Positions 5,641 through 38,267 of a DNA stretch of 39,350 bases are shown here, piece by piece (position 1 is the stretch's first letter; every line of letters starts with the position of its first letter). The position numbers were made by a program, and so were the translations under genes. Under the pieces are notes generated by a model, which saw only the letters and a program-made list of their open reading frames with translations, searched no databases and was not told where the DNA came from. The stretch spans positions 1-39,350 of IMG/VR virus record IMGVR_UViG_2698536590_000009. One strand, 5' to 3'. Source of the stretch: a virus. Its lineage: Duplodnaviria > Heunggongvirae > Uroviricota > Caudoviricetes.

Positions 5641-6801
5641 TTATTCAACCTCTTCTAAACTGCTCACTCTGGACCCTCGGCGGAAATTATCATCATTTTT
5701 AACATACTCATATGAATCCAGAATCAAACCAGATATGCGAAGTATATCTTCCGGATTAGTTATATGTATCCTTTTACCATCCGTATCAAGTCGAGCTCGT
5801 CTTATTTCATTCAACTGAACTTCACTAAGCGAAATAGGTAATGTTATAAATGAAGATTTTTTATCATAAAATCTTAACAGCCATCTATTAGTTTTACCAT
5901 TCAATAGTACACCAAAATATGACTCAGTATCTTTATATTCTATATTATCTTCTGTTTGTATGATTTGTTTTACCCTTTCAAATAGTTCCAATTCTTTGGC
6001 TGTGGTTATTATGTTGGGGTTTTCTTCATCAACAATGGCGTTATTAACTTGTGTATCCGTTGCATCATTTTCTTTAGTTTGCTCTACCGGTTGTGTAGAT
6101 AGCCCGGAAACCACCATTGCGCTAACAGCGCGCTCAACGGCCTGTTTAACTAATGGAGTCACGAACTCAAGAAATCTCTGATTAAGTTGTCTCTCAATAT
6201 TTGAACGACTAGCAACATATCGAACAAACTCCAGATCAACTTCACGAAGACTAGAACTGATTGTTTTAGTAAATGAATTCAAATAAACACTTTCTTCAGC
6301 CAGTGTCCGTAAAGCCTCTGGTTTGAATTTATCATAACGAAAACGAAATAATTGTGTAATATCGGAGTGAGTTAGAGAATCCATTCTTATTTTTAAAAAC
6401 GGCGTTGAATCCATTATGTTTTTTTGTTTCAAATCCGTAAAAAAACGCCATTCAACACCATTTGTAATGGCTGATATAGTAACTTCCGGTGTTGAATTAA
6501 AATATCTTGATAGCTGTGGGCAGTGATTATCAATTTGTTCTGAAAACGATTTCGCCTCAATGAACATCACAGGAACATCATGACAAAATAAAGCGTAATC
6601 AACCCGTTCATTAGCCTTAACCCCGGGGAAGTCAGCACTATACTCAGCTTTGACTTTTCTTGGATCATACGGAGTAAAACCAAGAATATCTAGTAATGGC
6701 ATAATGAGTGCTTGTTTTGTCGTTTCTTCAGTTGTACAAAACACCCCCATTTTTGCAACATGCTCTGTGTGTATTTTTAACTTATTTGCAAAATTTTCCA
6801 T
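5641..6801 (-). CDS. Restriction-endonuclease-fold protein: N-terminal type I restriction enzyme HsdR-N-like PD-(D/E)xK domain plus uncharacterised C-terminal domain; accessory (moron) gene, candidate anti-phage defence
   Basis: N-terminal motif pattern ...ALIMPLLDILGF...RVDYALF...VMFIEAKS...ITNGVEWRFF matches HsdR_N-type nuclease signature (recollection); AT-rich relative to flanking tail genes; own GGAGGAG SD (start likely ATG 6801, track start 6816), own terminator. Confidence 0.6.
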   Translation of the reverse strand: MENFANKLKIHTEHVAKMGVFCTTEETTKQALIMPLLDILGFTPYDPRKVKAEYSADFPGVKANERVDYALFCHDVPVMFIEAKSFSEQIDNHCPQLSRYFNSTPEVTISAITNGVEWRFFTDLKQKNIMDSTPFLKIRMDSLTHSDITQLFRFRYDKFKPEALRTLAEESVYLNSFTKTISSSLREVDLEFVRYVASRSNIERQLNQRFLEFVTPLVKQAVERAVSAMVVSGLSTQPVEQTKENDATDTQVNNAIVDEENPNIITTAKELELFERVKQIIQTEDNIEYKDTESYFGVLLNGKTNRWLLRFYDKKSSFITLPISLSEVQLNEIRRARLDTDGKRIHITNPEDILRISGLILDSYEYVKNDDNFRRGSRVSSLEEVE

Positions 6802-6829
6802 GCTTGTCTCCTCCATGGTAACAATATGT

Positions 6830-7579: not shown

Positions 7580-8293
7580 TTAACCAGGATTTGGTTTCTT
7601 CGACGTAATCGTGCTGCTGCCGCTTTGAACACCAGTCACATCGTGGCTGTGGCCGCTGACGCTCACGCCGTTGATAACTGCATCCATCTCGACATTAAGA
7701 GGACCAATCAGCGAAGCGGTTGTATCCTTCATCTGGGCTTTGTCCTGGACGATCGGTCCGTTGAGGTGAATTTTCCCGTTCAGGAAAATATCTTCGGCCT
7801 CGAGGTAAACAGCTTTCGACTTTTGCCTGATTTCTTCCAGAGCCACCATTACCGAGCTACTGCCGTCCTCTGTTTTGAGGATCGCGCCATCCGGACCGTA
7901 CAAAACGATTTTTTGCGGATCTTCGTCGGACCACTCCTTGTTTGCCAGTGGCACGAAAAACAGGGGAGTGAGCGACATCGAGTAAGAAAGCGTTGCCATA
8001 CCGGTTCCCAATCCGGACACACCGCGCAGTGATACATCAGCGGCAATTGTTACTCCTCGATCGCCCGGCTGTATCGGGTAACGGATATACGGGAATGTGG
8101 CGACAGGGATTGTTATCTGCGGGAAGTTGATCCCCTCCGGCAGCATATCAAACTGAACTGTCACTATTTGCCCGCAGATATCGACAACATGGCAGGGCAA
8201 TTCGCGGCCTTTAAGCTCGGCTTGCTGGTTACCAGAACTGGTCATCATCTCCGACAGTGTTCGGAGAAACGGTAATTTTTGAGCGTTTGACAT
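7580..8293 (-). CDS. Baseplate assembly/spike protein (gpV / Mu gp45-like)
   Basis: 237 aa, position between hub-like gene and W; family assignment by position and general resemblance. Confidence 0.5.
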   Translation of the reverse strand: MSNAQKLPFLRTLSEMMTSSGNQQAELKGRELPCHVVDICGQIVTVQFDMLPEGINFPQITIPVATFPYIRYPIQPGDRGVTIAADVSLRGVSGLGTGMATLSYSMSLTPLFFVPLANKEWSDEDPQKIVLYGPDGAILKTEDGSSSVMVALEEIRQKSKAVYLEAEDIFLNGKIHLNGPIVQDKAQMKDTTASLIGPLNVEMDAVINGVSVSGHSHDVTGVQSGSSTITSKKPNPG

Positions 8294-10234: not shown

Positions 10235-12313
10235 TTACCCCGGTATTTGTTGCATTCCGGCGAGTTGTGCCAGTATGTCGGAACCTGGTTTTTGTTGAAC
10301 GTCGAGCCTGATTACCTGAGAAGTATTATTTGGTGAATATACGTTTCCCCGGTTCATTGCCAGCGCCCGCATCACATCATCGCCACTTACTGCACGAGCG
10401 GCGTCCCCATTTTCATGGTTAATAATGCCCTGAATTAGCTTTCTCATTATCTCAAAATTAGAACCATCGATTTTCTCCTTAACACCTAATCCGGTGTACT
10501 GAGAGAGATAGCTTTTATAGGACGATGTGTTATTTCCATCAGATGAAGGGGCATAAATATCAATAATCTGATCAATCGTATTTTTGCCGCGTTTCAGGTA
10601 TAGCATTACCTGCCGATCTAAGGCAGCAATGCCTTCCAGCATCGTCGGGAAGCTGGCAAAACGGGCATTTGGCCCCGATTCCAGGGTAGCCCCTTTTTGT
10701 CCTGCGAAATTAAGATTTCCGGGATTGTTATTCCTGATCCCTCTGGATAAATATGCAGATCTGTTTACTTGATTTGAAAATCCCTGCAATCCTCCAGGCC
10801 AGACCTTACCCGGATTGTTTTTTTGCCACTCCTGCACTTCGTTAAAATAATCAAAGTTGAAACGCCCCTCCAGCCCTTTCATTTCCTCACTGGTGGTAGG
10901 TGTGTCATTTGTAGGAATAGCCAATCCAGCTACTGTTCCGGCTGTAGCCCCAAGAAGACTTCCACCAACAACACGGGCGGCAACTCCGGTCGTTGTGGCT
11001 GCCACAGCACCAACTCTCGATGGTCCAGCAAGTACTGCGGCCCCAAAAAGCCAGGGATGTTCAACCGCAAAACCAACAAACCCGCTAAGTGCCTTAACAA
11101 CCTTTGCAACATTTTCGGCAAAATTATTCAGGTCGTTATTAAAATCCGGGCCATTTACATACTTACCAAGTTTATCCAGACCTGTTTCAACATCAGTCAA
11201 AATTCTTTTAAAGTTCTCACCGTTAAGGAAATTTAGACCAGCATTCTTTACACCATTAGATATTCTAATTAGCTGTACAGAGTTACCCGACATTACCCCC
11301 TGAAATCCGCTGGTAAGTTGATCCCAGTTATTTTCTAAGTTGCTGGTAAGATTCTGATACTGGCTTGTATGTCCAGAGGTGAGCAACGAGTCATTCTGAG
11401 AAGCTCGCGATAAAAACTCTTTGTTGAGTTCAGGTATTTTGTCCTGATATTTGACTAACTGGTTAGCAATACCAAAATTTACCCATCCAAGGCCACGACC
11501 TCTGAGCATGCTCTGAGTAAGTCCAGTTCCCTCATACTCCTTTGCAAGAGCAGCAACTCTTTCTAACAATACAGGAAGATTTTCTGCTGCCCCTTTTTTA
11601 GGATTTATCCCTAATCCAATTAGCCCGTTGTAGGCAGGATGCTGAGTGTCATTTTGCGCGGCTGCCAGTGTATTGAGCAAATTACCAACACCGGAAAAAT
11701 AAGGCGAATAAGTGCTTTCTGCCGCCTTTAACTCTCCTGGCGTTGCCTGCAATTCATCAGCATTTTTCTGTTTCTCTACAACATTACGAGCCATCATGCC
11801 AAAGCCAAACGGCCCGGCAACACCCATAACCGCAAGTTTTGTCCCCCACGATACGGTGGTTTTAAACAGGTTGTTTAATCTCGAAGTCGTCGTCCGTAGC
11901 GTAGAATTGATCTGCTTGTAAGTTTTCAGCGTCTGTTTGGCGTTTTTCCCCAGCCCGCTGAGGTACTTATCAAACATCGTTTCGCCGCGACCTTTATAGT
12001 TGCTCACCAGCGAATCAGGTGTTTTCCCGCTGCCAACAAAGCGCCATTTTTCATCCCTTAAACGTCCATCAGTGGAAGCAGCCAGAACTGGCGCGGGTGA
12101 AGATGGTTTCCTGGGAGCCTGATTGGCTTCTCCGCCTGTGGTTGTCTGCCAAGAGCCACCTCCCGGACCGGTATTTGAAGGTATTTTAAGCGGCGTACCG
12201 GCAGGGCCAATCATCAGTCCGTTGCGATACTTTTCAAATATCGCCTCAAGCCGCCTGAGGTGTTCTTCATTAACATCCAGCGTCAGAACTGGCATCTGGT
12301 TACCAGCCATCAC
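10235..12313 (-). CDS. Tail tape measure protein
   Basis: 692 aa, Gly/Ala-rich hydrophobic central region, located directly after frameshifted chaperone pair. Confidence 0.65.
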   Translation of the reverse strand: MMAGNQMPVLTLDVNEEHLRRLEAIFEKYRNGLMIGPAGTPLKIPSNTGPGGGSWQTTTGGEANQAPRKPSSPAPVLAASTDGRLRDEKWRFVGSGKTPDSLVSNYKGRGETMFDKYLSGLGKNAKQTLKTYKQINSTLRTTTSRLNNLFKTTVSWGTKLAVMGVAGPFGFGMMARNVVEKQKNADELQATPGELKAAESTYSPYFSGVGNLLNTLAAAQNDTQHPAYNGLIGLGINPKKGAAENLPVLLERVAALAKEYEGTGLTQSMLRGRGLGWVNFGIANQLVKYQDKIPELNKEFLSRASQNDSLLTSGHTSQYQNLTSNLENNWDQLTSGFQGVMSGNSVQLIRISNGVKNAGLNFLNGENFKRILTDVETGLDKLGKYVNGPDFNNDLNNFAENVAKVVKALSGFVGFAVEHPWLFGAAVLAGPSRVGAVAATTTGVAARVVGGSLLGATAGTVAGLAIPTNDTPTTSEEMKGLEGRFNFDYFNEVQEWQKNNPGKVWPGGLQGFSNQVNRSAYLSRGIRNNNPGNLNFAGQKGATLESGPNARFASFPTMLEGIAALDRQVMLYLKRGKNTIDQIIDIYAPSSDGNNTSSYKSYLSQYTGLGVKEKIDGSNFEIMRKLIQGIINHENGDAARAVSGDDVMRALAMNRGNVYSPNNTSQVIRLDVQQKPGSDILAQLAGMQQIPG

Positions 12314-12620
12314 AATACTCCTGCGGGATTTTTGAATTTGAGCAGCTCACGAAACTGAGCTGCTGTTTTTACATTTAGGCCGGAATCTGCACAGATGTCT
12401 CTGAATCCGGCTCCGGCTGAGTAGTCGAGGATGTCGCTGATGACGTGTTCGCCGTCGCGCCAGAACTGGCGGCTGATTTCAATGTCGGCAATGAAGCGAT
12501 CCATTCCGTAAGATTCAATAACGAGCATTGAGTGCTCCATACTCCATTGACCACATCCATAGTCCCCTTCGCCTGCTCCGGTGAATTTATCGACGAGACG
12601 CATGTAAAAAAAATGAGCTC
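12310..12620 (-). CDS. -1 frame extension of the tail assembly chaperone (GT / E+E'-like fusion product made by programmed -1 frameshift)
   Basis: -1 frame is open from the T8 slippery run through ORF 12310..12603 and ends 3 nt before the tape measure start; arrangement conserved in tailed phages (established knowledge). Confidence 0.45.
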
Positions 12621-13004
12621 ACCCGCCACTTCATCCAAATCAATGATTTCACGCTCCAGCGCCATATCGAGAGGGATTGTGTCGTAGCCTTTACCCTCCA
12701 CTGGGTAAACAAGATTTGCCAGGCGAATGACCTCATTAACAAGTGTATTACGGACCCCTTTATCACCTTCCCAGATATTAGAATCACGCGAGATCCGCTC
12801 CAGCATCAAAAAAGCGATACGCGGACCCGCAACGACGCCAAGACCTTCTGAAAAAATGGCAGAAAAAGTTTTACTCAGAATGAAGAAATGCTCTTTAAAC
12901 ACCTCTTTGCTAATCGGCGTGGCATGGATCCAGCCATTATCCTTTTCTGTCCGGACAGGAATAATCAGGTTTAAATTTCGCGCGATTTTCATACCAGATC
13001 CCAC
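12375..13004 (-). CDS. Tail assembly chaperone (zero-frame product, lambda G / P2 E analogue)
   Basis: Located between tube and tape measure genes; contains slippery run T TTT TTT at 12613..12606 in zero frame. Confidence 0.55.
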   Translation of the reverse strand: MGSGMKIARNLNLIIPVRTEKDNGWIHATPISKEVFKEHFFILSKTFSAIFSEGLGVVAGPRIAFLMLERISRDSNIWEGDKGVRNTLVNEVIRLANLVYPVEGKGYDTIPLDMALEREIIDLDEVAGELIFFTCVSSINSPEQAKGTMDVVNGVWSTQCSLLNLTEWIASLPTLKSAASSGATANTSSATSSTTQPEPDSETSVQIPA

Positions 13005-13432
13005 ATTTCAGAGTTGATGTAATACGTACCAGTAATGGTGATGGCCACACCCGGCTCGCCCCCGGCGAAGGTCATATCCTGCACGTTGGTGATCGCCGTG
13101 TTATAGATATCGAAGTCACCGAACACCGTGCTGTCGCTATACACTTTTGCGTCGCCGATCGTGGCATTCTTTTCCCATTGCGTCTTGAATTGTTTTCCCA
13201 GCGCCTGGCTACGCAGCAGATGAACACGCGCCTGTAAAATCATGTATGGCTGCGGCGACTGCACGGCTCCCGTCATAGCGGGTAAAAACTCCGTGATATT
13301 GCCCTGAAAGGACAATTCGACGCCTTCTTTTGCCAGAAAAGAGGCGGACACATTCAGTTCAGAATGGGAGGTAAATTTAACGCTGGCGCGAACCCGGTTA
13401 AGGGTGCCAACGGGGATCATTGGATTAGGCAC
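12989..13432 (-). CDS. Tail tube protein
   Basis: 147 aa immediately downstream of sheath gene. Confidence 0.6.
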   Translation of the reverse strand: MPNPMIPVGTLNRVRASVKFTSHSELNVSASFLAKEGVELSFQGNITEFLPAMTGAVQSPQPYMILQARVHLLRSQALGKQFKTQWEKNATIGDAKVYSDSTVFGDFDIYNTAITNVQDMTFAGGEPGVAITITGTYYINSEMWDLV

Positions 13433-13443
13433 GGTTCAGTCCC

Positions 13444-14781
13444 TCACGAAAGCTGCATTGTCACATTGATGTTAAAAATGATTTCGACAAATCCGCGCAT
13501 CGGCGTATAGGAGGCCGAAAGGCCTGCATAACGCCCGATACCGTAATCATTGGGATTAGTGTTGATATACTGGCGGAAAGGCACTGCATCGACGACAGGC
13601 TGACCGTTGACCAGGCCGTAAGATACGCCCGTATTGAACACCGCCTGTGCGACCTGCTGCAGACGGTCGATCCCGTCCTGGTTGTAGTAAAGCGGGTTAA
13701 TTGGGTTATTGCTACCGTTGATCACCGTGTTGGCGAGCTGCATATCGACATTAATCTGCACCCAGTCCACGGAATACCAGTACGTCATATCGTTACCGTC
13801 ACTGGTAACGCCTTTCACCAGAATCGTGTTGGAAATTCCCCCCTCAGCCCCCGTGTCGACGTAGTTAATATTCTGCTTCGTCATCGTGACCAGAATTGAA
13901 TTTTTGCCCTTGTGGGCGTTTACCGCCTGTAGATAACGAAATGCCATCGGCGGCACCTTGTTGATTTCTGAAGGTGATGCGGAAACATAGTTCCACATTA
14001 CGGCTGCTGCCGCGTTTGTCGCCGGGTACGTATCATCCGCCGTTGCAATAACCGACTTAATACCGGCATAAGGCGAAACGTAATTCGTGTCGTCCGGCGT
14101 TTTCGTCAGCACGAAGAAATACTGCATCGCTTCGTTGGCGGTGTGGAGTTTTGCCAGACTGATAAATTCTGCGTCACCATCCCACCGCTGCGGCACCAGA
14201 TACGCATAAAACCGCAGGAGCGGATCTTCCATATAAGCTTTCAGTGCAGCGATTTCCTTACTGACCCCGCCTTTCTGTACTCCCAGCTCCAGCAGGTAAA
14301 TCCCAACTGAATTTCCCTGGGCAAAAAACGTGTTTACTGCCGTCACCAGATTTTCACTGCCGACAATGGAAAACTGCCCCAGTGTCACTGGCGAACCGGA
14401 AAGCTGAGAATCAGCAATCGTCCAGGTCAGTGTTTTTTCATCCGTGACGGTAGCAGTATATTCGCCATTCCACGCGTCGGGCGAACACCCGGAAACAACA
14501 ATTTTCACCTCAGAACTGTTTTCGCGTCGGATGTTGCTCCCTTCCGGAAGCGTCATCGTAACGGTGACGTTTGCCGCAGATTTTCCTGCGGCAGCCGCCG
14601 ACAACGCAGCAATCGGATTTTTAACCAGATCGTTAATATCCTGATTGCTGGTGAGTAATACAGGCTTCCCCGGCTCATGAGTCGTGGAGCCAAACGAGAG
14701 AACCGCAGACATCTGCTGCAGATTCGAGGGTATGGCCCCGATGGTCTGGGACACATTCACCGTGACGATATTAAACCCCAT
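13444..14781 (-). CDS. Contractile tail sheath protein
   Basis: 445 aa; size, composition and position upstream of tube gene typical of myovirus sheath. Confidence 0.8.
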   Translation of the reverse strand: MGFNIVTVNVSQTIGAIPSNLQQMSAVLSFGSTTHEPGKPVLLTSNQDINDLVKNPIAALSAAAAGKSAANVTVTMTLPEGSNIRRENSSEVKIVVSGCSPDAWNGEYTATVTDEKTLTWTIADSQLSGSPVTLGQFSIVGSENLVTAVNTFFAQGNSVGIYLLELGVQKGGVSKEIAALKAYMEDPLLRFYAYLVPQRWDGDAEFISLAKLHTANEAMQYFFVLTKTPDDTNYVSPYAGIKSVIATADDTYPATNAAAAVMWNYVSASPSEINKVPPMAFRYLQAVNAHKGKNSILVTMTKQNINYVDTGAEGGISNTILVKGVTSDGNDMTYWYSVDWVQINVDMQLANTVINGSNNPINPLYYNQDGIDRLQQVAQAVFNTGVSYGLVNGQPVVDAVPFRQYINTNPNDYGIGRYAGLSASYTPMRGFVEIIFNINVTMQLS

Positions 14782-15725
14782 TATTTAACCTCATATTTAC
14801 AAATGACTTTTTCAATCAACTGCCGGGATATTTCCCGGGCGGTGCTCTGGTAGTAATTCACGTCAAAATCGACAATCTTTTTCTTCGCCAGAGCGTTGAT
14901 TTCAACCTGTCCCGACTTTGCGTCCTGAACCACCGGAATATTGGTTACACCAAACTTTTCCTCCTCCAGCGCCCTGTTCACCACCGAGTCGACAAGATCC
15001 AGCGCCATTTTGTTGCTGAATCCGTAAAGCGTCAGGCGAACCGAATCCTGGACGAGCTGGAATCGCTCACCACCGAAAACAACGGGAGCCATCTGCAAAG
15101 GAATACTGTTGCGAACATCCACCGCGATATACGGAGGGCGAAGGTTCTGCGGTACCAGGTAAGACGGATACACGGTCGCGGCATCTTTCATTTGCAGCCA
15201 GATCGGGATGCTGTTGGATATGATCTGCTCGTCGCTGATATCCTCCTCGCAGTCGATAATCTGGGAACGCATGGTTGGCAAAATCGCCATGCCGCGATAA
15301 TGAAAAATACCCGACTGCTGATAGCGGCTCTCCATTCGAGAAAAAGCGAACTGGACGCCGCCGTACTCACCGAGATAGATCGCATCGGGATTTTCCACAT
15401 TAAAATCATCAACCTGCTGAACAGGCGTGAAAATAATGTTGTTCACATCCTTCGAGACAGACTCGTCCTGAATCGCAATAACCTGACGATGCAGGCTGCC
15501 TTTGATTTTCAGACGAGTTGGTGACTCAATATTCAGACGACACAGTTCATCGCAACTGATGATTTCCGCATTAACCCAATAGACAAAACCATCCAGCGGC
15601 AGAACCTGCCGGACATAGAGCCTGAACGTGATTTCCTGGTCTGACGAGATGGTTTCAACTGCGGATTTAAGAACGGACGAGAGCTGCGAACTGTGCTGTC
15701 CGGCTAATTCTTCAAGACTCGGCAT
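14781..15725 (-). CDS. Virion structural protein of unknown role (neck/tail completion region)
   Basis: 314-aa ORF between head-tail connector genes and sheath. Confidence 0.4.
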   Translation of the reverse strand: MPSLEELAGQHSSQLSSVLKSAVETISSDQEITFRLYVRQVLPLDGFVYWVNAEIISCDELCRLNIESPTRLKIKGSLHRQVIAIQDESVSKDVNNIIFTPVQQVDDFNVENPDAIYLGEYGGVQFAFSRMESRYQQSGIFHYRGMAILPTMRSQIIDCEEDISDEQIISNSIPIWLQMKDAATVYPSYLVPQNLRPPYIAVDVRNSIPLQMAPVVFGGERFQLVQDSVRLTLYGFSNKMALDLVDSVVNRALEEEKFGVTNIPVVQDAKSGQVEINALAKKKIVDFDVNYYQSTAREISRQLIEKVICKYEVK

Positions 15726-16167
15726 TGTTATCTATCCACGCTATAAAGCTGCCCTTAAACAGGCCGCCATCTATGAATGACGGGCGCCGCTCCCCGGTAT
15801 ATTTGTCCTTAAGCCTTGAGTTAACACCCTGTAACGCAGCCTGGGTTGGGACCTGATTTCCGTTGATCGTCATTCCGGCCATTTCTTCGGTTTCAAGAAA
15901 TATATGGAAAATCTTCCCGGTCCCTTCCAGAAAATGCTCGCCAGGTAGCGGAGCCTTATACTTGAAGTGATTGACCAACTGGTACGCCAGTTCAGTACCT
16001 GCCTCCTGGATAATCTCGTCCTTATGCATTTCCCAGAAGTGCGTAAAAATTTCGTATCGCTCCTCGAGGTCACAGGCCACGTCAAACGTGGTTTTTCCCG
16101 GTTCGTCGCCGTAGTCATACGGCTGGTCGATAACCCCAAAACAAAGTTTCATGGCGTGTAACCCCAT
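15712..16167 (-). CDS. Head-tail joining / tail completion protein (putative)
   Basis: Positional; overlapping starts typical of connector gene block. Confidence 0.4.
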   Translation of the reverse strand: MGLHAMKLCFGVIDQPYDYGDEPGKTTFDVACDLEERYEIFTHFWEMHKDEIIQEAGTELAYQLVNHFKYKAPLPGEHFLEGTGKIFHIFLETEEMAGMTINGNQVPTQAALQGVNSRLKDKYTGERRPSFIDGGLFKGSFIAWIDNNAES

Positions 16168-23634: not shown

Positions 23635-24715
23635 TATCCACTCCCGGCATCGGCAGAGAGTTGTGGATAATTATTTCGTTATTCTCACCACCCACACCTT
23701 TTTTGAGGTTTTCAATCTCAGTGCGCAGCTTTTCGTTGCGAAGCCTCAGTCCTTCAAGCTCCAGATCATTGCGACTGTCAGTTGCACCACCAGCAGAACT
23801 TCCTTTCGTCGCCGTTATCAGCTTGATAAGTTCGCGCCGGGCGGCAGCCTTATCCTCCAGCAGGATCTCAACGCCGAATTTTCCGAGCTTTGCCCCTGCA
23901 TATAATTGCCGCGCATCCCCATCAAGCAGAGCGGTATCAGCCATATAAAGCTGTCCCATTCCCTCACCGCAGCACTTCGGGCAGTCCAGATTGGGTATGG
24001 CGTTATCAACAAAGCCAAGGCCTCCATATTCCGGCTCGGGTTTGCCATCTCTGGAGGCCTGTGCCGCTGCCTTATCGAATTCTGCAATATCACGCCACTG
24101 GTAGAGGTGATTCTCGCCCCAGCAATAACGGCAGTTAACACGGCGAAATTGTGCCAACTGATTGGGGTCGGCCTGGACAATGGCCATCAACTGACTCACC
24201 AGTAAATCCAGGTCTGCGGTATAGCGTTTCTGATACTGATTGCGGAAGTAGCTGATAGCACGATAAACCCTGGCATTTCTAAGCATACGGCTGGCGTTGC
24301 TGTTAGCTGTCGCACCTTGCCCCTCATAACCAGCCAGTCGGTATGCCTCTGTCGGCTTTTTCCCCTGAGCAACAAGCATCGCAAACTTAGCCTGCTGGTC
24401 AGAAATGCCGAATTCATCGGGGCAGAACGAAAATTCCTCCGCGTCGCCCTCATTCAGGCACGCATCGGATACTGGCTTTTTTTTCTGAGATTTTCCGTTC
24501 CGCTTTTGCGCAGTCTGCGCAGATTTTTTCTGCGCACTTTGTTGCGCAGTTTTGCGCATTTCTGTCTGCGCATTTTTCGGAGGTTTTTTGATGTAACGAC
24601 GGGCTGTTGCGTAATTCAGTCCCCTTGCCTCACACCATGCCACCGGGGATACACCGGAGCGGGTGTATTCAGCAATATATTCCTGCTGCAACGCCCCCCA
24701 GTCCGGTCTGCTCAT
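23624..24715 (-). CDS. Terminase small subunit-like DNA-binding protein
   Basis: N-terminal HTH-like segment, basic/Cys-rich region, immediately upstream of and overlapping large terminase. Confidence 0.55.
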   Translation of the reverse strand: MSRPDWGALQQEYIAEYTRSGVSPVAWCEARGLNYATARRYIKKPPKNAQTEMRKTAQQSAQKKSAQTAQKRNGKSQKKKPVSDACLNEGDAEEFSFCPDEFGISDQQAKFAMLVAQGKKPTEAYRLAGYEGQGATANSNASRMLRNARVYRAISYFRNQYQKRYTADLDLLVSQLMAIVQADPNQLAQFRRVNCRYCWGENHLYQWRDIAEFDKAAAQASRDGKPEPEYGGLGFVDNAIPNLDCPKCCGEGMGQLYMADTALLDGDARQLYAGAKLGKFGVEILLEDKAAARRELIKLITATKGSSAGGATDSRNDLELEGLRLRNEKLRTEIENLKKGVGGENNEIIIHNSLPMPGVDNVD

Positions 24716-27065: not shown

Positions 27066-27127
27066 AAAAAGGCCCGCCGGAGCGAGCCATAAAAAACTGA
27101 ATAAAAAAAAACCGCCAGGTGCGGCGG
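27066..27127 (-). terminator. Repeat R copy A: tandem pair of intrinsic terminator hairpins (CCGCC..GGCGG + U9 and GGCCCGC..GCGAGCC + U5)
   Basis: Seen in sequence; near-identical copy at 27746..27806. Confidence 0.5.
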
Positions 27128-28460: not shown

Positions 28461-28761
28461 GACGCATACAATTTATGTTATTTCATCCAGACTTCTGATT
28501 TCTCACAGGAAATTGCGAAAAAAAAACAACATAAAAATGAACAAATTGGGAGTACGCTAACTCCGTTGTCGCAATAAATCACAGTAAGCTCTTCAGAAAT
28601 AACAGTTCACAAGACTTACATCAACAGTAGTTTTTGTAATGATTAATGTTAACTGTAGCGTTGAAAAGAAAAGTTTTGACGAAATATGGTGAACTAACAG
28701 AGCCTAACGAATAGCCCTATTACGCCGAGCTAATAGCGCTGCCAGCTAAACTTGCATGGAA

Positions 28762-37203: not shown

Positions 37204-37462
37204 GAATCAACTCCTGTGCATTTTGTGTGTTAGCCTTACATCCAACAGGTAAACCATCGGTCGGATTCGGGTAGATATCAGGCCGGAGTTCATGAGGTGT
37301 AACCTCGAAATTCGTAGCCTCTGCGATACGCAATACCTTTTCAGGGCTTAACTGACTACGTCCAGTAGCAACGAGGCTAATCATTGATTGCGAACAACCA
37401 GCCAGCGCGGCCAAACAAGACTGTCGTACACGATTTTTTTTCAAATATTCATCTAATGTCAT
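37187..37462 (-). CDS. Cro-like HTH regulator (YdaS family)
   Basis: ATG 37462 with GGTGA SD; HTH-like segment; divergent from repressor gene. Confidence 0.55.
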   Translation of the reverse strand: MTLDEYLKKNRVRQSCLAALAGCSQSMISLVATGRSQLSPEKVLRIAEATNFEVTPHELRPDIYPNPTDGLPVGCKANTQNAQELIHENQA

Positions 37463-37566: not shown

Positions 37567-38031
37567 ATGAGAAGAAAACGCGAAGAAATCGCATCGCCAG
37601 AAGCTACGCAGCGTCTACGCGGAATCTGGGATGCAAAAAAAAGAGAGCTCAAATTGACTCAGGAGCTTGCTGCCGAGCTAATGGGCTTTGAGACGCAATC
37701 TACGGTTAGCCACTATCTCAACGGAAAGGCTCCACTTAACACTGATGCGGCATTAAAATTCGCAGTATTGCTAAGAGTTAAGCCTGAAGACTTGAGGCCT
37801 GATTTAGCTGATCTGATGAATTACGTCCGTTCCTCTGGAACTTATGACGAAAGTTTCGAAGGCGAAGGGTGGCGGATGGTTAACAAGCAACAAGCTGATT
37901 TACTGGATCTTTTTGATATCCTCCCCGAATCAGAAAAAGCAAAACTAATCGAAAGGCTTAAAGGCCAGAATGAACTCTACAAAGAAGCGTTTGAAAATAT
38001 GCTGGCAGCTCAGAAACGCATAAAGAAATAG
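37567..38031 (+). CDS. Prophage repressor, HTH-XRE type without peptidase domain (DicA/RacR-like)
   Basis: HTH segment LTQELAAELMGFETQSTVSHYLNG; C-terminal LLDLFDILPESEKAKL resembles DicA. Confidence 0.65.
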   Translation: MRRKREEIASPEATQRLRGIWDAKKRELKLTQELAAELMGFETQSTVSHYLNGKAPLNTDAALKFAVLLRVKPEDLRPDLADLMNYVRSSGTYDESFEGEGWRMVNKQQADLLDLFDILPESEKAKLIERLKGQNELYKEAFENMLAAQKRIKK

Positions 38032-38076: not shown

Positions 38077-38267
38077 GTCCCCTGCGCCCCCATCGCCTTA
38101 CTTTTTTATCAAAAAAAACACTAAAATTTTCATTAGGATAGTACATTTTTATCAACAAAATGCATATTTATGTTGATCATCAATATGAATATAACTAATA
38201 TTATTGCAGAAGCAGCACGGCGCTGTAGGTTTTAGTTCCGCCACCCGGCGTTAAGGGGAGAGATAAG

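What the first reader, a model, noticed from the sequence alone, without database searches (positions are those of the whole stretch)
12310..13004. Programmed -1 frameshift site (T TTT TTT) in the tail assembly chaperone gene
The zero-frame chaperone ORF contains an 8-T run, in frame as ATT TTT TTT. The -1 frame is open from this point through ORF 12310..12603, which ends 3 nt before the tape measure start. This reproduces the conserved G/GT (E/E') arrangement of tailed phages. Unusually, the zero-frame product continues about 74 residues past the slip site as a Ser/Thr-rich low-complexity tail.
Basis: partly seen in the sequence, partly recalled or inferred. Interest (0 to 1): 0.45.

Follow-up and report, generated by a model that had tools for sequence, protein, structure and literature searches.

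The report
Frameshift site in prophage tail chaperone
An E. coli prophage gene between the tail-tube and tape-measure genes has a conserved run of eight T's where ribosomes most likely slip back one base to make a second, longer protein; this is the well-known phage trick, except that the site sits unusually far from the gene's end, so both protein endings share about 230 bases.

Summary
On the minus strand an 8-T run (12613-12606) reads ATT TTT TTT in the zero frame of a 205-aa ORF (12992-12375). The -1 frame opens 8 nt upstream and runs to a TGA (12312-12310) that overlaps the start codon of the tape-measure-like gene. T8 is not a sequencing error. It is present in 91 of 92 related loci first analysed (one has C TTT TTT) and in 7 of 7 genomes later found through the -1-frame domain alone. 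The two Phe codons are present in 123 of 124 family representatives. The ATG after the run is not conserved in distant relatives, so the -1 ORF is not an independent gene. A lambda G/GT-type or P2 E/E+E'-type -1 frameshift is the best explanation (about 0.8). No record examined annotates it. The family matches no known chaperone family by sequence or fold. The "low-complexity tail" reading is only partly right: the first ~40 extension residues are conserved and confidently modelled as folded, and only the last ~35 are Ser/Thr-rich and disordered. The shift therefore appears to swap one C-terminal module for another across a 59-76-codon dual-coding overlap. This is an ordinary mechanism with an unusual geometry. 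There is no experimental evidence.

The parts
12606..12613 (-). T8 run. The slippery heptamer T TTT TTT is 12612-12606, in zero-frame phase ATT TTT TTT (I127 F128 F129).
   Evidence: Read directly. T8 is found in 91 of 92 related loci, and one has C TTT TTT. It is also found in 7 of 7 genomes retrieved through the -1 domain alone. FF is present in 123 of 124 family representatives.
12375..12992 (-). Zero-frame ORF, the short isoform (TAC-N analogue), 205 aa. Residues 1-129 are the shared N-domain. Residues 130-~170 are a conserved, predicted-folded extension. Residues ~172-205 are a Ser/Thr-rich disordered tail.
   Evidence: It matches phrog_11810 over its full length and is annotated as a hypothetical protein in every record examined. 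The AlphaFold2 model has mean pLDDT 82.7 and is confident to about residue 170. Conserved extension residues are shown.
12310..12606 (-). -1-frame segment read after the slip: TAC (Tyr) at 12606-12604 through the stop TGA at 12312-12310, 98 codons. It has a variable ~30-residue linker and then a conserved core, E.YG…F..DI[DE]R.R.FWRDGEH.IS..LDY.AG.GF. The predicted long isoform is 227 aa.
   Evidence: It matches phrog_14324 over its full length. Conservation is shown. The ATG at 12603 is not conserved in distant loci.
12378..12605 (-). Dual-coding overlap of 76 zero-frame codons. The zero and -1 frames are both open in every lineage, while the third frame carries 3-9 stops.
12619..12621 (-). 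TGA that closes the -1 frame 8 nt upstream of the T-run, so the -1 frame is reachable only at the run.
12618..12623 (-). GGTGAG, a Shine-Dalgarno-like element 5 nt upstream of the heptamer. It also encodes Gly-Glu. Whether it has any stimulatory role is unknown.
   Evidence: GGNGAR is present in nearly all DNA loci, but Gly-Glu is not conserved across the wider family.
10235..12310 (-). Downstream tape-measure-like gene, 691 aa from ATG 12310, with a C-terminal lytic transglycosylase domain. Its ATG overlaps the -1-frame stop (TGATG).
   Evidence: It matches phrog_7694 over its full length and phrog_2276 (tape measure) over residues 496-641. The PGAP start is given.
12989..13432 (-). Upstream tube-like gene. 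Its stop overlaps the chaperone ATG (ATGA, 12992-12989).
   Evidence: It matches phrog_6566. It lies directly after the sheath gene 13444-14781 (phrog_205, E = 1.3e-54).

Best explanation
The gene at 12992-12375 is the tail assembly chaperone analogue of a contractile-tailed E. coli prophage of the Rac-SA53 type.

Most ribosomes read straight through the U8 run and make a 205-aa short isoform. A minority slip back one nucleotide while tRNA-Phe occupies the P and A sites on U UUU UUU. They then read UAC (Tyr) and continue in the -1 frame to the stop that overlaps the tape-measure start, giving a 227-aa long isoform (…GELIFF-YMRLVDK…).

By analogy with lambda gpG/gpGT, the shared N-domain would bind the tape-measure protein and the -1-encoded domain would recruit the tube protein. 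This functional step is inferred, not shown.

Unlike the textbook cases, the slip occurs at 63% of the short ORF. The two isoforms therefore carry alternative conserved C-terminal modules encoded in the same ~230 nt.
For: - Geometry: the heptamer is in the correct phase. The -1 frame opens 8 nt upstream and closes on the next gene's ATG.
- Synteny: the order is sheath, tube, this gene, then the tape-measure-like gene. The same order appears in distant metagenomic relatives.
- Conservation of the site: T8+AC is kept in 91 of 92 loci down to ~48% N-domain identity and in 7 of 7 Enterobacterales genomes found through the -1 domain alone. FF is present in 123 of 124 representatives. The next residue is T, I or M (codon A[CT]N) in 115 of 124, which makes the first -1 codon TAY and never a stop.
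- No conserved start: the ATG after the run is replaced by TTG, CTG, ATC or GTC in distant clades.
- Natural joins: 9-T alleles (L065, L094, L095) and distant single-ORF proteins fuse the two halves at FF|Y.
- The -1 domain is strongly conserved.
- Precedent: P2 shifts -1 at TTTTTTG with no downstream RNA structure (PMC3091744). Pakpunaviruses use GTTTTT (PMC12846349). Lambda G/GT is reviewed in PMC5009743.
Against: - There is no experimental evidence for the fusion protein.
- U_UUU_UUU is reported to be much less shift-prone than A_AAA_AAG in E. coli (PMC5009743).
- No stimulatory RNA structure is predicted downstream, z = +0.5 to +0.6.
- The distant single-ORF fusions are metagenomic singletons. 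For the two looked up, both from one ENA assembly, no DNA is available, so they could be 9-T miscalls.
Confidence: 0.8

Rival explanations
1. The frame change is made by RNA polymerase rather than the ribosome. Slippage on the 8-base homopolymer adds one U to a fraction of transcripts, and normal translation of the U9 mRNA then gives the same 227-aa fusion.
For: The site is a pure homopolymer. Bacterial RNA polymerase slips efficiently at runs of 9 A or T (PMC5009743). U_UUU_UUU is a comparatively weak ribosomal shift site in E. coli. A U9 mRNA gives exactly the FF-Y junction seen in 9-T DNA alleles.
Against: The run is 8, one below the benchmark of 9. Its length follows from the heptamer plus a preceding Val or Ile codon ([AG]TT), so nothing selects for extra length. 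No lineage has extended it beyond 8 as its consensus. One lineage (L084) keeps only C TTT TTT, too short for polymerase slippage, yet retains the whole architecture. Related myovirus chaperone sites (P2 TTTTTTG, GTTTTT) are too short for it.
Confidence: 0.1
2. There are two separate genes and no recoding. The 97-aa ORF 12603-12310 is translated independently from its own ATG, possibly helped by the U-rich leader.
For: An ATG follows the T-run directly in the window and in all Enterobacterales copies. Some gene callers predict a stand-alone 97-aa protein (P0127; phrog_14324).
Against: In distant clades the ATG is replaced by CTG, ATC, GTC or TTG while T8 and the Tyr codon stay. The only SD-like element ends 14 nt before the ATG, which is too far. 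Independent initiation does not explain the near-invariant FF codons, the restriction of the next codon to A[CT]N, or the joins at FF|Y.
Confidence: 0.04
3. The T8 run is a homopolymer sequencing or assembly error, or a pseudogenising mutation. The true gene would be a single 227-aa ORF with 9 T.
For: A few assemblies carry 9 T (L065, L094, L095) or 7 T (P0122). NCTC-style and Logan assemblies show scattered indels in this gene (P0002-P0004).
Against: T8 is identical in complete genomes from many laboratories and platforms and in 91 of 92 loci. Zero-frame 205-aa proteins are seen on thousands of contigs (for example P0013 on 1000 or more, P0030 on 676), against 6 contigs for the 9-T protein. 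Both reading frames stay open in every lineage.
Confidence: 0.01
4. The frameshift is real, but the zero-frame continuation beyond FF has no function of its own. It stays open and looks conserved only as a by-product of selection on the -1 frame.
For: Given the -1 protein, synonymous recoding leaves the zero frame open in 11-50% of trials. The third frame also keeps 21-29% identity through DNA conservation. Part of the zero-frame motif (SL.TST) lies over the most conserved -1-frame stretch (DIDR.R.FW). The last ~35 residues are low-complexity and variable.
Against: Extension length is tightly distributed: median 59 aa, with 105 of 124 representatives in the 50-79 range and no genuine short forms. 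W152 is at least 90% conserved and L168 is invariant where the -1 frame is a variable linker. A C-terminal S[VI]P[ST] motif lies over a variable -1-frame stretch. AlphaFold2 models residues 130-170 with pLDDT 82-87. -1-frame third positions vary less inside the overlap (39% and 34%) than in the -1-only tail (70% and 48%) in two clades.
Confidence: 0.35

Closest known systems
Phage lambda gpG/gpGT tail assembly chaperone (-1 frameshift at G GGA AAG; Levin 1993 and Xu 2004, 2013, 2014 as reviewed in PMC5009743)
   Same: The gene sits between the major tail or tube gene and the tape-measure gene. Two products share an N-terminus. The -1 ORF has no start of its own. No strong RNA stimulator is needed.
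   Different: The heptamer differs. There is no sequence or fold similarity. Lambda is a siphovirus. The lambda slip lies a few codons from the end of G, whereas here 76 zero-frame codons follow it and appear to encode a folded segment.
Phage P2 gpE/gpE+E' (-1 frameshift at TTTTTTG; Christie 2002, cited in PMC3091744)
   Same: It is a contractile-tailed temperate enterobacterial phage. The slippery run is poly-T. No downstream RNA structure is present. The -1 ORF reaches the tape-measure gene.
   Different: P2 E is 91 aa and E+E' is 142 aa, against 205 and 227 aa here. There is no detectable homology. The long dual-coding overlap is absent from the P2 description.
TAC-N/TAC-NC of Pakpunavirus and Andersonviridae myoviruses with a conserved GTTTTT motif (PMC12846349)
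   Same: In both cases a frameshift that the databases leave unannotated is inferred from an uninterrupted -1 frame and an invariant poly-T motif across diverged genomes.
   Different: There the motif lies near the 3' end of TAC-N and the -1 ORF extends into 'intergenic' sequence. Here most of the -1 ORF overlaps zero-frame coding sequence.
Transcriptional slippage sites (Thermus thermophilus dnaX T9; Shigella mxiE; PMC5009743)
   Same: A homopolymeric A or T run gives access to another frame.
   Different: The run here is 8 (6 in one lineage) rather than 9 or more, and it is in exact X XXY YYZ phase.

Membership tests
Frameshifted tail assembly chaperone (lambda G/GT, P2 E/E+E' type) | The gene lies between the tail tube or major tail gene and the tape-measure gene | tested here: met
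   The order is sheath (phrog_205), tube-like gene, this gene, then a 691-aa gene with a tape-measure and transglycosylase hit. The same order appears in distant relatives.
Frameshifted tail assembly chaperone (lambda G/GT, P2 E/E+E' type) | An X XXY YYZ slippery heptamer in zero-frame phase | tested here: met
   T TTT TTT at 12612-12606, in phase.
Frameshifted tail assembly chaperone (lambda G/GT, P2 E/E+E' type) | The -1 ORF has no conserved start or ribosome-binding site of its own and opens just upstream of the slip site | tested here: met
   The -1 frame is closed by a stop 8-38 nt upstream in all lineages. The ATG is not conserved in distant clades. No SD element lies at a usable spacing.
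Frameshifted tail assembly chaperone (lambda G/GT, P2 E/E+E' type) | The slip site and both ORFs are conserved across diverged relatives | tested here: met
   91 of 92 loci plus 7 of 7 genomes carry T8. FF is present in 123 of 124 representatives.
Frameshifted tail assembly chaperone (lambda G/GT, P2 E/E+E' type) | [quoted passage not shown] | tested here: not met
   76 of 205 zero-frame codons (37%) follow the slip. The family median is 59.
Frameshifted tail assembly chaperone (lambda G/GT, P2 E/E+E' type) | Sequence membership in a described chaperone family (Pfam Phage_TAC families, NCBIfam) | tested here: not met
   No Pfam hit at E <= 0.01 and no NCBIfam hit. The PHROG families 11810 and 14324 are labelled 'unknown function'.
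Frameshifted tail assembly chaperone (lambda G/GT, P2 E/E+E' type) | Fold similarity to solved tail assembly chaperones | tested here: not met
Frameshifted tail assembly chaperone (lambda G/GT, P2 E/E+E' type) | Short and long isoforms are made at a fixed ratio, both are needed for tail assembly, and neither is in the virion | not testable with these tools
   This needs proteomics and genetics.
Programmed transcriptional slippage site | A homopolymeric A or T run of about 9 or more | tested here: not met
   The run is 8, and 6 in L084. The benchmark of 9 comes from PMC5009743.
Dual-coding (overlapping) gene region | Both frames are under purifying selection over the overlap | tested here: inconclusive
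   Single-frame codon-phase models are rejected in two clades (p about 1e-10 and 2e-6). -1-frame third positions are depressed inside the overlap. The zero-frame extension is conserved and confidently modelled. However, the phase counts ignore phylogeny, and the recoding null gives P = 0.11-0.50 for zero-frame openness.

The most novel reading that the evidence does not exclude
The frameshift does not simply append a domain to a complete short chaperone. It swaps one functional C-terminal module for another. The first is a folded helix-strand-helix segment, followed by a Ser/Thr-rich tail that ends in a conserved S[VI]P[ST] motif. The second is the conserved FWRDG-type domain. Both are encoded in the same 180-230 nt across a family that extends from Enterobacterales prophages to distant metagenomic phages. 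That would make this a long, conserved dual-coding region inside a tail chaperone gene, and would give the short isoform a role of its own beyond binding the tape measure.
Probability: 0.5. Interest if true: 0.45.

Novelty: new variant of a known kind. Interest (0 to 1): 0.35.

Why it matters
- Annotation. This gene is labelled a hypothetical protein, and the -1 ORF is missed in every record examined, including RefSeq, Rac-SA53 and pPE4. The prophage occurs in 93 of 5,426 complete E. coli genomes. One rule (T8 + AY after …VFF) would fix the annotation for the whole family, including PHROGs 11810 and 14324.
- Biology. The family shows that the G/GT logic can be carried by a protein with no detectable similarity to known chaperones. 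It also shows that the slip site can sit mid-gene, with two alternative C-termini. This gives a tractable system for asking what the short isoform's own C-terminus does, and a naturally occurring 9-T fusion-only allele to compare against.

Tried and rejected
- Downstream RNA stimulator: folds of 67 and 107 nt are no more stable than shuffled sequence, z = +0.5 and +0.6.
- Pfam, NCBIfam and PDB sequence searches gave nothing.
- DNA for the distant single-ORF fusions P0131 and P0214 could not be retrieved. Both come from ENA assembly ERZ1426849, so the 'Rosetta-stone' argument rests on protein sequences only.
- Pairwise identity as a test of dual coding was uninformative, because the third frame keeps 21-29% identity.
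- Frame openness alone is only moderately unlikely.
- The AlphaFold2 model of the fusion was poor in the -1 part, pLDDT 36-61 with an 8-sequence alignment. No fold inference was made for that domain.
- The first genome-contig scan, with alignment A1, failed for lack of a conserved stretch. It was repeated successfully with the -1 domain.
- The short representatives (131-151 aa) are 7-T variants or truncations, most likely at contig ends or from sequence errors, not a 'classical' short form.
- The primary P2 paper (PMC135442) is not held.
Full report
**What is in the sequence**

All genes in this part of the window are on the minus strand.
- The run TTTTTTTT occupies 12613-12606.
- In the frame of the ORF that starts at ATG 12992 it reads CTC ATT TTT TTT ACA TGC (…G-E-L-I-F-F-T-C…). 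The last seven T's therefore form an X XXY YYZ heptamer in the correct phase.
- The -1 frame reads TGA GCT CAT TTT TTT TAC ATG CGT. It is closed 8 nt upstream of the run and then open for 98 codons, to the TGA at 12312-12310.
- That stop shares its A with the ATG of the next gene (TGATG). RefSeq places the start of that gene at window 12310.
- The zero frame continues 76 codons past FF, to a stop at 12377-12375.

The only slips are "ends 3 nt before the tape measure start" and the use of the GTG at 13004 as the start.

An 8-T run alone is not remarkable here: 9 in the window against 6.3 expected.

**Context**

PHROG scans identify the following:
- a tail sheath (13444-14781, phrog_205, E = 1.3e-54);
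- a small tube-position gene (12989-13432);
- the two ORFs in question (phrog_11810 and phrog_14324, both "unknown function", both matched over their full length);
- a 691-aa gene with tape-measure and lytic-transglycosylase hits;
- baseplate hub, baseplate wedge and tail-fibre genes downstream;
- portal, terminase and capsid genes upstream.

This is the morphogenesis module of a contractile-tailed prophage.

The region is 90-93% identical to Escherichia phage Rac-SA53 and to a phage deposited as Actinobacillus phage vB_Apl-pPE4. It occurs in 93 of 5,426 complete E. coli genomes. In every record I opened, the 618-nt zero-frame ORF is a "hypothetical protein". The -1 ORF and the frameshift are not annotated.

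**Not a sequencing error**

- T8 is identical in 13 of 13 annotated records, including copies where the preceding codon is GTT instead of ATT.
- It is present in 91 of 92 loci once 80 IMG/VR contigs are added. The exception, L084, has ATC TTT TTT.
- The 205-aa zero-frame protein is seen on thousands of contigs. The 9-T fusion protein P0001 is seen on 6.
- Rare 9-T (L065, L094, L095) and 7-T (P0122) variants exist. Whether they are real alleles or miscalls cannot be decided here.

**Conservation in distant relatives**

An exhaustive HMMER search with the fusion-length protein found 626 representatives at E <= 1e-3.
- Most are 186-205 aa, and their similarity to the fusion query stops at residue ~130, exactly at the slip site.
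- Of 124 representatives with an identifiable motif, 123 have FF.
- The next residue is T, I or M in 115 of them. These are the amino acids whose codons are A[CT]N, which makes the first -1 codon TAY (Tyr) and never TAA or TAG.

In DNA from loci at ~48-55% N-domain identity:
- T8+AC is retained;
- the -1 frame encodes the same conserved domain;
- the ATG after the run is replaced by TTG, CTG, ATC or GTC.

That argues against independent initiation.

I also searched bacterial genomes with the -1 domain alone. This returned seven Enterobacterales species (Yersinia, Pseudescherichia, Winslowiella, Erwinia, Pantoea, Arsenophonus, Serratia). All seven have:
- …VFF in the zero frame immediately before the run, one frame over from the -1 domain;
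- T8+AC at the junction;
- a 59-76-codon zero-frame extension;
- a -1 stop at the next gene's ATG. Six share 1 nt with it (TAATG or TGATG). In Arsenophonus the ATG lies a few nt upstream of the stop.

In Yersinia (L096) the zero frame is open for only 14 codons upstream of the run, so its N-domain appears interrupted.

Several distant proteins (32-40% identity) carry both halves in one ORF, joined at FF|Y. They are metagenomic singletons. For the two looked up, both from one ENA assembly, no DNA is available, so I treat them as supportive only.

**Mechanism**

The best explanation is tandem -1 slippage of tRNA-Phe on U UUU UUU.

There is no predicted downstream structure. The same is true of P2, whose E/E+E' shift at TTTTTTG is the closest precedent (PMC3091744). 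Other myoviruses use GTTTTT (PMC12846349).

An SD-like GGTGAG lies 5 nt upstream and recurs as GGNGAR in nearly all loci. It also encodes Gly-Glu, which is not conserved across the wider family, so I draw no conclusion from it.

Transcriptional slippage is the main mechanistic rival. The evidence against it:
- the benchmark for efficient slippage is 9 A or T (PMC5009743), and the run here is 8;
- the length of 8 is explained by the heptamer plus a Val or Ile codon;
- one lineage has only 6 T.

I cannot exclude a contribution.

That the N-domain binds the tape measure and the -1 domain recruits the tube protein is inferred from lambda (PMC5009743). It is not shown here.

**Membership**

Position, heptamer, start-less -1 ORF and conservation all meet the definition of a frameshifted tail assembly chaperone.

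Sequence and fold membership do not:
- no Pfam, NCBIfam or PDB sequence hits;
- only weak Foldseek hits in BFVD, a few of them annotated as chaperones.

So it works like G/GT, but it is not demonstrably a member of any described chaperone family.

**The unusual part**

[quoted passage not shown] Here 37% of the short ORF lies beyond it.

Evidence that the continuation is more than read-through:
- Length is tightly distributed: median 59 aa, with 105 of 124 representatives in the 50-79 range.
- Some positions are conserved where the -1 frame is a variable linker: W152 at 90% or more and L168 invariant in alignment A1, plus the motif LW..QT..LN.TE[FYW]..SL.
- A C-terminal S[VI]P[ST] motif lies over a variable -1-frame stretch.
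- AlphaFold2 models residues 130-170 as helix, strand, helix with pLDDT 82-87. Residues 172-205 are disordered.

In two independent clades the distribution of variable sites over codon phases rejects both single-frame models. -1-frame third positions also vary less inside the overlap than in the -1-only tail.

Caveats:
- The phase counts ignore phylogeny.
- Synonymous recoding of the -1 protein leaves the zero frame open in 11-50% of trials.
- Part of the zero-frame motif sits over the most conserved -1 stretch.

I therefore rate dual function as about even odds rather than established.

**Verdict**

This is a previously unannotated instance of the conserved tail-chaperone frameshift, in a family with no detectable similarity to known chaperones. 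Its slip site is mid-gene and the overlap is probably dual-coding. The mechanism is ordinary and the geometry is mildly surprising. Interest is 0.35.

Noticed in passing
L003 (PP818812.1) versus window 12200-13500: A phage deposited as Actinobacillus pleuropneumoniae phage vB_Apl-pPE4 is 92.7% identical in DNA to this E. coli prophage region, with identical gene order. The host assignment looks doubtful. It may be contamination or an induced E. coli prophage.
   Followed up: no
window 5641-6816 (-): A 391-aa gene matching phrog_4225 'endonuclease' (E = 4.7e-149) sits inside the baseplate and tail module, between a small structural-position ORF and the baseplate wedge gene. It may be a mobile or moron insertion.
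   Followed up: no
window 12989-12992 and 12308-12312 (-): There is a chain of overlapping stop and start codons: tube stop with chaperone start (ATGA), and -1-frame stop with tape-measure start (TGATG). The zero-frame stop lies 62 nt upstream of the tape-measure start. Only frameshifted ribosomes terminate at the tape-measure start, which could couple its translation to the shift.
   Followed up: partly
L002 348-789 (RM11911), equivalent to window 15712-16153 (-): PGAP flags the neighbouring 146-aa gene as 'frameshifted' in E. coli RM11911. That copy has a 1-nt indel relative to Rac-SA53 and pPE4. The window's copy is intact.
   Followed up: yes
window 27103-27111, 28518-28526, 37635-37642, 38111-38118 (-); 24477-24484, 37434-37441 (+): There are other runs of 8-9 T outside the morphogenesis block. 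I did not check whether any lies in a coding frame.
   Followed up: no
P0131 and P0214 (ENA assembly ERZ1426849): Two different distant relatives from the same metagenome assembly are both called as single in-frame fusions joined at FF|Y. This suggests either a systematic homopolymer miscall in that assembly or genuine fused lineages. No DNA was available.
   Followed up: partly
L096 (Yersinia similis Y228): The zero frame upstream of the T-run is open for only 14 codons, so the N-domain appears interrupted in this genome. The prophage copy may be decaying.
   Followed up: no
window 7580-8293 (-): A 237-aa ORF between the baseplate hub gene and downstream tail genes has no PHROG match at E <= 1e-5.
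   Followed up: no
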